From a virus (lineage: Duplodnaviria; Heunggongvirae; Uroviricota; Caudoviricetes): a stretch of DNA of 9,181 bases. The stretch lies in the IMG/VR virus record IMGVR_UViG_2548877011_000016; one strand, written 5' to 3'. Below are positions 5,767-6,531 of this stretch, piece after piece (the first letter of the stretch is position 1; each line of letters starts with the position of its first letter). The notes below the pieces were generated by a model, which worked only from the letters and a program-made list of their open reading frames with translations, had not been told where the DNA came from and made no database searches. Both the position numbers and the translations under genes were made by a program.

Positions 5767-5981
5767 AACCCCCCCCCATTTTCACAATCAGCAACAAGAA
5801 TATTTTTAGCGTCATTCAGCGACCGCGTTGCGATGTATCGGATACATTCCAGGGCGAACTGTGTCCGGTCTTTCTGTTCTTCTCCCTGCGCAAGCTCTGC
5901 AGTGCATTCAATATCGATAAGCGCGTGCATCAGCGTAGTGAGCGCGGCGGCTGCTGCGTCCGGTGTGGTTTTATTGCACAT
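5739..5981 (-). CDS. Hypothetical protein (80 aa from the ATG at 5981); 3' end contains the G9 tract
   Basis: ATG at 5981 is preceded by AGGAGG with a 6-nt spacer and overlaps the stop of the Icd-like gene by 11 nt. The C-terminus ...ENGGGLCVMIVLIP is encoded across the G9 tract. The track ORF 5739..6023 starts at an upstream codon without an RBS. Confidence 0.5.
   Translation of the reverse strand: MCNKTTPDAAAAALTTLMHALIDIECTAELAQGEEQKDRTQFALECIRYIATRSLNDAKNILVADCENGGGLCVMIVLIP
5769..5777. repeat. Homopolymeric C9 (G9 on the coding strand) at the junction of two overlapping ORFs
   Basis: Nine consecutive C at 5769-5777 on the plus strand. One extra G would fuse ORF 5739..5981 in frame with ORF 5545..5766. 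Confidence 0.9.
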
Positions 5982-6531
5982 GGCACACCTCCTGACGAAT
6001 ACGGGCGGCGAATACAGCAACACAACCGGACGGGCAACGGCTACGCGCTTCGCGTTCCGTCCAGGCGGTTACGTGGATGATTTGATGTTCTGACGCGCCA
6101 AAGATGATAAAGCGCCAGAGAAAGGCGGTTTGAGAATGTACAAGGGTAGGGATAGTAGCCATGTTGGCAGCCTCCTCAGTGTGGTTAAGATAACCGCCAC
6201 CGGAAACGCCAATTTCGCTGGTGGCGGACTGTGCAGGGTTGGCGTAACCGGACACTGAAGAAACCGGCGCGGATTGCTCCGCCCCCGTACAGCCCACCAT
6301 TGATAAGGTGTGACTATGCGGCACAAAAAAACACGCGGGGCGCGTGTTATGCGCTTCAGTTTTGCCCAGGACGCCAATCCCGGCACCCGTTTTATGAGGT
6401 GCGCGGGAATCATAGCTATTTTCGACACTGGCGATCAACTGGTTTTTTTCTCCGATATTCAGGGCCAGAAAACGCCACACAAAGGCCGTTTGTGTGTGTA
6501 CAAGGTGTGGTATATGATTTACGGCAACCAT
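5971..6531 (-). CDS. Icd-like small protein with internal duplication (186 aa; complete C-terminal module may be expressed alone from an internal ATG at 6162)
   Basis: ATG at 6531 is preceded by AGGAG with a 5-nt spacer. Two paralogous modules share LVH(T/S)QTAF(V/L)WRF: residues 1-45 and the C-terminal 63 aa (MATIPTLVHSQTAFLWRFIIFGASEHQIIHVTAWTEREARSRCPSGCVAVFAARIRQEVCHVQ). The latter has its own GAGGAGG 8 nt upstream of the ATG at 6162. The pattern F.W.F...A.TE.EAR...FA.R...V resembles P4-type Icd-like proteins by recall. The track ORF starts at an upstream GTG without an RBS. Confidence 0.55.
   Translation of the reverse strand: MVAVNHIPHLVHTQTAFVWRFLALNIGEKNQLIASVENSYDSRAPHKTGAGIGVLGKTEAHNTRPACFFVPHSHTLSMVGCTGAEQSAPVSSVSGYANPAQSATSEIGVSGGGYLNHTEEAANMATIPTLVHSQTAFLWRFIIFGASEHQIIHVTAWTEREARSRCPSGCVAVFAARIRQEVCHVQ

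What the first reader, a model, noticed from the sequence alone, without database searches (positions are those of the whole stretch)
5971..6531. Tandem duplicated Icd-like modules fused in one frame, with a strong internal ribosome-binding site
The ORF contains two paralogous modules sharing LVH(T/S)QTAF(V/L)WRF. The upstream copy diverges after about 45 residues and runs without a stop into the downstream complete copy, which has its own GAGGAGG and ATG at 6162. This predicts a long and a short isoform, or a decayed upstream paralogue that lost its stop codon. Icd-type proteins in P4 inhibit host cell division, so dosage or isoform control here could matter for host physiology during induction.
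Basis: partly seen in the sequence, partly recalled or inferred. Interest (0 to 1): 0.5.

Follow-up and report, generated by a model that had tools for sequence, protein, structure and literature searches.

The report
P4-type immunity region, nested eta/kil genes
The "fused double Icd" reading frame is the immunity region of a P4-like satellite prophage: a small cell-division-inhibitor gene sits at the end of a longer frame that runs across an internal promoter and two regulatory RNA genes, a layout already described for phage P4, and the upstream "copy" is a truncated leftover of another inhibitor gene.

Summary
One frame (ATG 6531 to stop 5971, 186 aa) contains two LVH(T/S)QTAF(V/L)WRF blocks. 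GAGGAGG and an ATG at 6162 start a complete 63-aa Icd-like protein.

The C4 loops pair with the IsrK body and with the Icd ribosome-binding site.

Phage P4 has the same layout. There the long frame is eta and its last 65 codons are kil, which matches the same Icd-like model. The frame staying open is not a by-product of RNA conservation:
- It is open in 54 of 54 distinct C4 loci that are followed by Icd/Kil.
- It is open in 6 of 36 C4 loci that are not.
- The deletions in it are in frame.

The upstream block is a truncated Icd N-terminus. Relatives keep 45 residues of it, and these resemble a different Icd allele more than their own downstream copy. Close relatives carry two or three cassettes in tandem, so it is probably the relic of a cassette junction.

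Verdict: a new member of a known kind, of modest interest.

The parts
5971..6531 (-). Long nested ORF (eta-like), 186 aa. ATG at 6531..6529, GGAG at 6540..6537 with a 5-nt spacer. It reads through the internal promoter, both RNA genes and the Icd-like gene.
   Evidence: The middle (aa 73-166 of the 219-aa form) matches Pfam PF10554 Phage_ASH at 60 bits. P4 Eta matches the same model at 82 bits. The frame is kept open in 54/54 C4 loci with Icd/Kil and in 6/36 without.
6433..6513 (-). Upstream Icd-like fragment (module 1), residues I7-I33. It is a truncated N-terminus of an Icd-like protein.
   Evidence: Shuffle tests. The longer 45-aa version in relatives (L127, L130) hits NF033153 at 41 bits, model positions 1-32 of 48. 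The window copy lacks 48 nt relative to them, in frame.
6476..6496 (-). Hairpin CACACAAA-CGGCC-UUUGUGUG followed by GCGUUUUCUG, inside module 1. It is created by the very substitutions that distinguish module 1 from module 2.
   Evidence: Flagged as terminator-like in the window and in L127. Folding energy is -9.9 kcal/mol in the window and -14.8 in L127, and module 2 forms no equivalent hairpin. Its function was not tested.
6409..6438 (-). Internal sigma-70-like promoter TTGATC-N18-TATGAT, ending about 7 nt before the IsrK-like 5' end (PLE-like).
   Evidence: The same hexamers and spacing occur in L127. The invariant 'QLI' and 'YD' residues of the protein alignment are these two hexamers.
6326..6402 (-). 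IsrK/seqA-type RNA. It carries the a1 (UUGGCGU, 6377..6371) and b1 (ACUGAAG, 6360..6354) target sites and an intrinsic terminator (stem 6348..6330 plus a U-run).
   Evidence: Rfam RF01394 at 66 bits, gathering score 50. Terminator scan. Predicted duplex with the C4 loops is -32.3 kcal/mol.
6217..6304 (-). C4/CI-type antisense immunity RNA. Loop b' is UUUCUUCAGUG (6263..6253) and loop a' is ACGCCAA (6245..6239).
   Evidence: Rfam RF01695 at 73.8 bits, gathering score 45. In 56 distinct homologues, 27 pairs are 97.5% canonical and 15 pairs show compensatory changes.
6171..6216 (-). seqC-like target region: a2 (UUGGCGU, 6212..6206) and b2 (CACUGAGGAGG, 6181..6171). b2 contains the Icd Shine-Dalgarno GAGGAGG (6177..6171).
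   Evidence: Predicted duplex with the C4 loops is -39.5 kcal/mol. a1, a' and a2 co-vary, as do b1, b' and b2, in 7 loci with different loop sequences.
5971..6162 (-). Short nested ORF (kil/icd-like), 63 aa. This is the only part predicted to fold.
   Evidence: NF033153 at 57 bits. P4 Kil scores 76 bits on the same model. In the AlphaFold2 model, residues 133-179 of the long ORF have pLDDT 60-74 with a beta-beta-alpha-beta fold, while residues 1-132 are below 50.
5760..5981 (-). Next gene (74 aa, no family match). Its ATG (5981..5979) and GGAGG lie inside the last codons of the Icd-like gene, an arrangement compatible with translational coupling.
   Evidence: Sequence. RefSeq annotation of a 99.7%-identical locus. 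No family hit.
6621..6672 (-). Candidate upstream promoter for the long ORF: TTGACA (6672..6667), N18, TAGCCT (6648..6643). Two 10-bp repeats AGGTGACCAC (6656-6665 and 6621-6630 on the + strand) lie in the spacer and just downstream.
   Evidence: Read directly from the sequence. The window site falls below the scan threshold. The relative L127 has TTGACA-N18-TATGTT (10 of 12) at the same place, with two GGTGTACACC palindromes. Function is inferred only.
6666..6857 (+). Divergent small ribbon-helix-helix-like gene (63 aa), a candidate regulator of the upstream promoter.
   Evidence: Pfam HicB at 20.4 bits, just under the cutoff of 21. Weak TraJ match. A gene occupies the same position in L127 and L130.

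Best explanation
This is the immunity and early-leader region of a P4-like/PICI satellite prophage, built like the phage P4 eta/kil-CI locus.

Proposed mechanism, with each step marked as shown here or inferred:
1. A promoter inside the long frame starts transcription at about 6402 (promoter match shown; activity inferred).
2. That transcript gives an IsrK/seqA-type RNA ending at an intrinsic terminator. On read-through it also gives a C4/CI-type RNA. The RNA genes and their structure are shown by model matches and covariation.
3. The two C4 loops pair with sites in the IsrK body and with the region that contains the Icd ribosome-binding site. Complementarity and three-way covariation are shown. 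The outcome is inferred from P1 and P4: no translation of the 63-aa Icd/Kil-like protein, and premature termination before the replication genes.
4. Transcripts from an upstream, probably repressor-controlled, promoter carry the ATG at 6531. Ribosomes then translate straight through the IsrK, C4 and target sequences. This would prevent the RNA pairing and termination and so make these transcripts insensitive to immunity. It would also produce a long protein ending in the Icd module. This step is inferred from P4 eta. What supports it here is that the frame is kept open wherever Icd/Kil follows C4.
5. The upstream Icd-like block is not a second working inhibitor. It is a truncated 5' piece of another Icd allele, left at a junction between immunity cassettes, and it now supplies the start site and first codons of the long frame.
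For: RNA genes and their targets:
- One search finds C4 at 73.8 bits and isrK at 66 bits between the two modules.
- One search shows three-way covariation of a1/a'/a2 and b1/b'/b2 in seven loci, with b2 overlapping the Shine-Dalgarno.
- One search gives C4-loop duplexes of -32.3 kcal/mol (IsrK body) and -39.5 kcal/mol (Shine-Dalgarno region).
- One search shows 15 of 27 C4 pairs with compensatory changes.

Same layout in P4:
- Searches show isrK, C4 and one 214-aa ORF ending in the 65-aa Kil.
- One search gives P4 Kil 76 bits on NF033153. One search gives P4 Eta 82 bits on PF10554.
- (PMC10111431, citing Forti et al. 1999) states that the promoter is internal to eta, that Kil is a truncated Eta, and that Eta translation prevents termination.

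The long frame is maintained:
- the frame is open in 54/54 distinct Icd/Kil loci and in 6/36 others.
- 11 of 14 clusters (90% identity) have every member with an in-frame extension of at least 396 nt upstream of the kil ATG, and the largest cluster has 28 of 29.
- the length variants are in-frame steps of 9, 12, 48, 60 and 75 nt.
- most of the 139 Icd-like cluster representatives carry the domain at the C-terminal end of a long ORF.

Promoters.

Origin of module 1:
- Searches show the 45-aa version in relatives, which hits the Icd model.
- Searches give 80% identity to another allele and 49% to its own downstream copy.
- Searches show tandem cassettes in L034, L057 and L074.

Folding: only the C-terminal Icd module is predicted to fold.
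Against: - No expression data exist for this locus. Both promoters are consensus matches only, and the window's upstream -10 (TAGCCT) is weak and below the scan threshold.
- The primary P4 paper (Forti et al. 1999) could not be read. The eta mechanism is taken from a secondary summary.
- The loci compared are related to one another, so 54/54 is not 54 independent events.
- Two of the 14 clusters (L007/L082 and L054) have the kil-like sequence out of frame with the long ORF.
- The element differs from P4 upstream. A divergent ribbon-helix-helix-like gene lies between alpA and the long ORF, whereas in P4 eta is coupled to the alpA homologue.
- An intrinsic terminator inside the long ORF would have to be overridden.
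Confidence: 0.72

Rival explanations
1. Only the two RNAs and the 63-aa Icd-like gene are functional. The long frame is never translated. It is open only because the conserved, G+C-rich RNA sequences happen to lack stops, and gene callers extend the ORF.
For: - The middle of the ORF evolves under RNA constraints.
- Its invariant residues are promoter hexamers.
- It is predicted to be unstructured.
- RefSeq splits it into an 'ash family' pseudogene plus Icd-like in a 99.7%-identical genome.
- In a P1-like phage the icd frame closes 195 nt upstream, so C4-Icd control itself does not require a long frame.
Against: - The same RNA family in loci without Icd/Kil has this frame open in only 6 of 36 cases, against 54 of 54 with Icd/Kil.
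- The frame stays open through unrelated upstream segments in different lineages.
- Length variants are multiples of 3.
- Stops sit just upstream of a conserved GGAG-ATG in several relatives.
- P4 eta is reported to be translated, and translation of Gifsy-1 orf45 across its C4-like RNA was shown by tagging (PMC4825925).
Confidence: 0.15
2. One reading: a tandem duplication produced a protein with two Icd modules, or a long and a short isoform, whose dosage tunes inhibition of host cell division.
For: - The two blocks are truly paralogous.
- The long product would carry a complete Icd module at its C-terminus.
- Tandem complete icd genes exist in relatives L057 and L074.
Against: - The window's upstream block gives no hit to the Icd model. 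It keeps only about 13 residues of the 40-residue core needed for P1 Icd activity.
- A series of relatives carries progressively shorter in-frame versions, down to none. The peptide therefore appears dispensable.
- It derives from a different allele.
- The region between the blocks is made of RNA genes.
Confidence: 0.05
3. Module 1 is a regulatory leader. Its conserved hairpin plus U-tract (6496..6476) acts as a translation-sensitive attenuator. It lets upstream-promoter transcripts enter the immunity cassette only when the leader is being translated.
For: - The substitutions that distinguish module 1 from module 2 are exactly those that create an 8-bp stem.
- In relatives the stem is unchanged while the loop varies.
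- The scan flags it as terminator-like in both the window and L127.
Against: - The stem is short (3 G-C pairs) and the U-tract is interrupted.
- No compensatory changes are available to test the stem. The same pattern fits purifying selection on codons.
- Other N-terminal types of the long ORF lack it.
Confidence: 0.08

Closest known systems
Phage P4 immunity region: nested eta/kil genes with CI RNA, seqA and seqC (Forti et al. 1999, as summarised in PMC10111431; P4 record NC_001609)
   Same: - The order is the same: internal promoter, IsrK/seqA-type RNA with terminator, C4/CI-type RNA, then a target overlapping the ribosome-binding site.
- The short gene belongs to the same Icd-like family.
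- One long frame covers all of it.
- The replication genes lie downstream.
   Different: - The N-terminus of the long frame here is a truncated Icd-like fragment, whereas P4 Eta starts with unrelated sequence.
- The IsrK-C4 spacer is 21 nt here, against about 107 nt in P4.
- A divergent ribbon-helix-helix-like gene and operator-like repeats lie immediately upstream, instead of the alpA homologue.
- The loop sequences differ, which implies a different immunity specificity.
Phage P1/P7 immI operon: a1b1 - c4 - a2b2 - icd - ant
   Same: - C4 RNA with two loops complementary to repeated targets, the second of which covers the icd ribosome-binding site.
- An Icd family protein.
- A downstream gene whose start overlaps the end of icd.
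   Different: In the P1-like phage examined, the icd frame is closed 195 nt upstream, inside the IsrK-like region, so there is no eta-like long frame. The downstream gene there is an antirepressor or DNA-binding protein, not the satellite's replication module.
Salmonella Gifsy-1 isrK-orf45-anrP locus (PMC4825925)
   Same: An IsrK RNA with a read-through isoform. A small ORF overlaps the C4-like RNA, is translated, and is coupled to the next gene. Its nucleotide sequence is conserved while its amino-acid sequence varies.
   Different: There IsrK acts in trans as an activator of orf45 translation and the output is an antirepressor. Here the output is an Icd/Kil-type protein and a satellite replication operon. 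IsrK action was not tested here.
Database families PF10554 'Phage_ASH' and PGAP 'Ash-like/host cell division inhibitor Icd-like protein'
   Same: The 186-aa ORF, at 96% identity, is already deposited under these names in hundreds of E. coli records.
   Different: These names treat the middle as a protein domain. Here it maps onto a promoter and two RNA genes, and it is predicted to be unstructured.

Membership tests
P4-type eta/kil-CI immunity module | A C4/CI-type antisense RNA gene upstream of the first translated gene | tested here: met
   RF01695 at 73.8 bits, gathering score 45, at 6304..6217. Structure supported by covariation.
P4-type eta/kil-CI immunity module | Upstream (seqA) and downstream (seqC) sites complementary to the CI loops, with seqC at the ribosome-binding site | tested here: met
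   Duplexes of -32.3 and -39.5 kcal/mol. Three-way covariation in 7 loci, with b2 containing GAGGAGG.
P4-type eta/kil-CI immunity module | A short toxic Kil-type gene as the first gene after CI | tested here: inconclusive
   Family membership is met: 57 bits on NF033153, and P4 Kil scores 76 bits on the same model. Toxicity was not tested.
P4-type eta/kil-CI immunity module | A longer ORF in the kil frame that starts upstream of the internal promoter and reads across seqA, CI and seqC | tested here: met
   ORF 6531..5971. Conserved in 54/54 Icd/Kil loci against 6/36 others.
P4-type eta/kil-CI immunity module | A constitutive promoter internal to the long ORF, and a second regulated promoter upstream | tested here: inconclusive
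   Consensus matches only. Internal: TTGATC-N18-TATGAT. Upstream: TTGACA-N18-TAGCCT in the window, below threshold, but 10 of 12 in L127. No transcript data.
P4-type eta/kil-CI immunity module | Translation of the long ORF suppresses immunity-specific termination | not testable with these tools
   Needs reporter fusions or ribosome profiling.
Icd-like protein (NCBIfam NF033153), downstream module | Score above the curated cutoff over the full 48-position model | tested here: met
   57.1 bits, model positions 1-48 of 48. Aligns with the P1 Icd core, residues 12-51.
Icd-like protein (NCBIfam NF033153), upstream module | Score above the curated cutoff over the full 48-position model | tested here: not met
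   No hit for the window's 42-aa upstream segment at E<=0.1 or for the 123-aa upstream part at E<=1. The 45-aa version in relatives scores 41 bits but covers only model positions 1-32. It is a fragment, not a member.
Pfam PF10554 Phage_ASH | Score above the gathering threshold | tested here: met
   60 bits, aa 73-166 of the 219-aa form. The matched stretch coincides with IsrK, C4, seqC and the first Icd codons.
P1 immI operon | c4 - icd - antirepressor order, with icd as a stand-alone short gene | tested here: not met
   There is no antirepressor downstream. The next genes are small unknowns, DUF4222 and a RepA-like helicase. Here icd is nested in a long frame, unlike the P1-like locus L131.

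The most novel reading that the evidence does not exclude
Immunity cassettes (promoter, IsrK, C4, target, first 25-45 codons of the next gene) may behave as stackable, exchangeable units in satellites and phages. The in-frame 5' gene fragments they leave behind would then be co-opted as translated leaders that gate entry of upstream transcripts into the cassette. On this reading the Icd-derived leader in the window, with its conserved hairpin and U-tract, would be a translation-sensing attenuator. Arrays such as L034, with three C4 copies carrying different loops inside one 349-aa frame, would give immunity against several specificities at once.
Probability: 0.12. Interest if true: 0.55.

Novelty: new member of a known kind. 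Interest (0 to 1): 0.3.

Why it matters
- **Annotation.** "Ash family protein" and 180-320-aa "Icd-like" proteins in thousands of enterobacterial genomes are largely translations of a promoter and two regulatory RNA genes. The strong internal ribosome-binding site is an antisense RNA target, not just an alternative start.
- **Biology.** The comparison gives independent, sequence-only support for the idea that P4-like satellites keep a translatable frame across their immunity RNAs. The frame is open only where Icd/Kil follows. This is consistent with the translation-based escape from immunity proposed for P4 eta.
- **Evolution.** The truncated Icd fragment and the tandem cassettes in relatives show how these immunity modules are shuffled.
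- None of this changes the known mechanism.

Tried and rejected
1. **The repeated motif as a C4 target, like a1b1/a2b2.** Rejected. Predicted duplexes of the C4 loops with either motif are only -12 to -14 kcal/mol, against -32 and -40 for the real targets.
2. **A relic seqC or Shine-Dalgarno region upstream of module 1, as part of the duplicated unit.** The 44 nt before the two ATGs do not align better than shuffles (125 of 5000 reach the score in the window; no signal in L127). The duplication is detectable only from about codon 4.
3. **A 'vestigial a2' at about 6651..6614.** The local alignment was marginal (9 of 500 shuffles). It coincides with the candidate upstream promoter's -10 and operator repeats, so it is treated as chance.
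4. **Database scans that gave little.**
   - The search for related loci with an alignment failed because no block was conserved enough.
   - The single-protein scan of genome contigs gave only 3 loci.
   - I replaced both with a C4 DNA pattern scan of viral contigs.
5. **Literature.** The primary P4 eta/kil paper (PMC94026) is not held. I used the summary in PMC10111431.
6. **Tandem Repeats Finder.** It found nothing in L034, although Rfam shows three cassettes there. The copies are too divergent for it.
7. **RNA duplex scan.** The first whole-RNA duplexfold scan was hard to interpret. I redid it with the loop region only.
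Full report
**1. Observation**

The feature lies on the minus strand. The ORF listing gives one ORF at 5971..6630 (219 aa from a GTG). The ATG at 6531, preceded by GGAG at 6540..6537, gives 186 aa, and the ATG at 6162 gives 63 aa.

The two motif blocks, LVHTQTAFVWRF and LVHSQTAFLWRF, are in the same frame with no stop between them. Their similarity is far above chance:
- DNA local score 40, against a maximum of 25-28 in 2000 shuffles.
- Protein score 75, against a maximum of 47 in 5000 shuffles.

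GAGGAGG (6177..6171) lies 8 nt before the ATG at 6162. The one correction is that the similarity between the copies ends after about 21-33 residues of the upstream copy, not 45.

**2. What lies between the copies**

An Rfam scan of the window places two RNA genes inside the ORF, on the same strand:
- An IsrK-type RNA at 6402..6326 (66 bits, gathering score 50), ending in an intrinsic terminator (stem 6348..6330 plus a U-run).
- A C4 antisense RNA at 6304..6217 (73.8 bits, gathering score 45).

A sigma-70-like site, TTGATC-N18-TATGAT (6438..6409), ends just upstream of the IsrK 5' end.

The protein-family results fit this map:
- NCBIfam's Icd-like model matches only the last 63 residues (57 bits).
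- Pfam 'Phage_ASH' matches exactly the stretch that covers IsrK, C4 and the first Icd codons.
- The 'invariant' residues of the protein alignment, QLI and YD, are the two promoter hexamers.

**3. The RNAs are real and target the internal start**

Across 56 distinct C4 sequences collected with a DNA pattern scan, the 27 base pairs of the Rfam structure are 97.5% canonical. Fifteen of them show compensatory changes.

The two C4 loops are complementary to three places:
- UUGGCGU and ACUGAAG in the IsrK body.
- UUGGCGU at 6212..6206.
- CACUGAGGAGG at 6181..6171, which contains the Icd Shine-Dalgarno.

In seven loci with different loop sequences, all three partners change together. Predicted duplex energies are -32.3 and -39.5 kcal/mol, against -12 to -14 for the repeated peptide-motif regions. 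The strong internal RBS is therefore the antisense target. This matches the a2b2 site of P1 and seqC of P4. PMC3632133 equates IsrK-like RNA with seqA and C4-like RNA with CI.

**4. The same architecture in P4**

In NC_001609 the same two Rfam families lie inside a single 214-aa ORF. Its last 65 residues are MATTLTPSHPEF...EVSRA.
- The 65-aa part scores 76 bits on the Icd-like model.
- The whole ORF scores 82 bits on PF10554.

PMC10111431, citing Forti et al. 1999, describes this as eta with kil nested inside it. A constitutive promoter lies inside eta. The CI/seqA interaction terminates its transcript. Kil is a truncated Eta. Full-length Eta is made only from an upstream promoter, and its translation prevents termination. 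I could not read the primary paper.

In Gifsy-1, an ORF overlapping the C4-like RNA is translated and coupled to the next gene, and its nucleotide sequence is conserved more than its amino-acid sequence (PMC4825925).

**5. Is the long frame maintained, or is it a by-product?**

I took 120 viral-contig loci that contain a C4 pattern, whatever their coding content, plus the fetched loci, and reduced them to 90 distinct sequences.
- Every one of the 54 followed by an Icd/Kil-type gene has the kil frame open from at least 98 nt upstream of C4 through to the gene. Only 6 of 36 without Icd/Kil do (Fisher 3e-18 on distinct, but related, sequences).
- At 90% DNA identity there are 14 Icd/Kil clusters:
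  - In 11, every member has an in-frame extension of at least 396 nt above the kil ATG.
  - The large P4 cluster has 28 of 29.
  - In two clusters the kil-like sequence is out of frame.
- The upstream parts of these frames are unrelated between lineages, yet all are open.
- Length variants are in-frame:
  - P4-type spacers of 227, 236, 239 and 248 nt all leave remainder 2 when divided by 3. The single 237-nt exception is a frameshifted copy.
  - Window-type gaps are 3, 12, 48, 60 and 75 nt.
- In a P1-like phage the icd frame closes 195 nt upstream.
- Most of the 139 representatives of Icd-like clusters carry the domain at the C-terminal end of a long ORF.

This argues that P4-like satellites select for an open frame across their immunity RNAs, while the peptide itself is free to vary. 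AlphaFold2 agrees. Residues 1-132 have pLDDT below 50 and no secondary structure. Residues 133-179, the Icd module, reach 60-74 with a beta-beta-alpha-beta fold.

**6. What the upstream 'copy' is**

Relatives (L127, L130; proteins P0009, P0046, P0053) carry a longer version: MAVRQHTPRLAHTQTAFVWRFIALSIAQPRVIHIEATSEQEARQ. It is followed directly by the promoter hexamers.
- It scores 41 bits on the Icd-like model but covers only positions 1-32 of 48.
- The window copy is the same fragment with a 48-nt in-frame deletion. Other relatives keep only YIWRFLA, or nothing.
- The long fragment is 80% identical to the functional Icd of a Salmonella homologue and only 49% identical to its own downstream Icd. 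It therefore comes from another allele, not from a recent in-place duplication.
- It lacks the C-terminal part of the 12-51 core that PMC11897509 found necessary for FtsZ inhibition by P1 Icd.

Close relatives with the same module 1 (L057, L074) carry two complete isrK-C4-icd units in tandem. L034 carries three C4 cassettes, each preceded by a repeated 5' fragment of the next gene, all inside one 349-aa frame. The upstream block is best read as the relic end of a neighbouring cassette. It now provides the ribosome-binding site, the ATG and the first codons of the eta-like frame.

**7. Surroundings**

The window is a P4-like/PICI-type satellite:
- integrase (7940-9181, minus strand);
- an AlpA-type regulator, according to RefSeq annotation of a near-identical locus;
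- a divergent ribbon-helix-helix-like gene (6666-6857, plus strand);
- DUF4222;
- a RepA-like helicase (3608-5008);
- a small terminase subunit and a capsid protein.

Between the ribbon-helix-helix-like gene and the long ORF there is a perfect TTGACA (6672..6667) with a weak -10 (TAGCCT) and two AGGTGACCAC repeats. L127 has TTGACA-N18-TATGTT with two GGTGTACACC palindromes at the same place. This is my candidate for the regulated upstream promoter. It is inferred only.

The gene after icd starts (ATG 5981, GGAGG) inside the last icd codons, which is compatible with coupling as in P1 icd-ant.

**8. Verdict**

- The 'long and short isoform' and 'decayed paralogue' ideas are each partly right.
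- The essential content was missed: the promoter, the two RNA genes and the antisense-controlled start.
- The architecture is the known P4 eta/kil-CI design. The ORF itself is already deposited under 'Icd-like' and 'Ash' names.
- The Icd-derived N-terminus and the evidence for cassette stacking are minor additions.
- Novelty: new member of a known kind. Interest: 0.3.

Noticed in passing
L034:1195-2364 (IMG/VR UViG_2825488710_000003): There are three tandem C4 copies with IsrK copies between them, and their loop sequences differ. Each is preceded by a repeated 5' fragment of the next gene (MATTPTPKHPKS...). One 349-aa ORF (1315..2364) runs through the whole array. This may be a multi-specificity immunity array.
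   Followed up: partly
L057:8574-9690 (minus strand) and L074:3235-3898: Close relatives of the window's element, with the same module 1, carry two complete isrK-C4-icd units in tandem. The two Icd alleles differ, and the second long ORF starts inside the end of the first icd.
   Followed up: partly
window 6560-6604: A strong hairpin (15 pairs) is followed by TTTGCTTTTTT. It reads as an intrinsic terminator on the plus strand, antisense to the long ORF, and sits in the 5' leader of the long ORF. L127 has the same hairpin with a compensatory A-T to C-G change. No plus-strand gene obviously ends there.
   Followed up: partly
window 6621-6672, 6666-6857: Two 10-bp direct repeats, AGGTGACCAC, flank the -10 of a TTGACA promoter candidate. 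They lie next to a divergent 63-aa ribbon-helix-helix-like gene that starts with TTG. L127 has GGTGTACACC palindromes at the same positions. This is a likely operator-repressor pair controlling the long ORF.
   Followed up: partly
P4 record NC_001609 (L003:1389-2313): PF10554 'Phage_ASH' matches P4 Eta (82 bits), that is, the stretch over seqA and CI. P4 epsilon matches PF25738 instead. The methods of PMC8628076 list PF10554 as the epsilon marker for detecting P4-like satellites. The GenBank record still labels part of eta as 'cI gene product (AA 1-137)'.
   Followed up: partly
window 6476-6496: The six nucleotide differences between module 1 and module 2 inside the shared motif include four coordinated changes (TCTC to ACAC and CTCT to GTGT). 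These create an 8-bp hairpin followed by GCGUUUUCUG in module 1 only. In relatives the stem is invariant and the loop varies.
   Followed up: partly
L007, L082, L054: In these C4 loci the kil-like sequence is out of frame with the long ORF, which instead continues for 540-700 nt in another frame over the kil-like region. They were not explained.
   Followed up: no
window 5769-5777: A run of nine C (nine G on the coding strand) lies at the overlap of two small minus-strand genes (5760-5981 and 5545-5766). This is a homopolymer tract that could be prone to slippage.
   Followed up: no
window 10-498: Two plus-strand ORFs (10-273 and 286-498) lie at the left edge of the window, beyond the satellite's capsid and terminase genes. 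The second ends in ...AGVVWTF. By eye they look like the C-terminal end of an outer-membrane autotransporter-type protein. I ran no family search on them.
   Followed up: no
window 969-2681: The satellite encodes its own HK97-type capsid protein (PF05065, 28.8 bits) and a small terminase subunit (PF03592, 41.5 bits). This suggests a capsid-forming PICI-type element rather than a classical P4.
   Followed up: no
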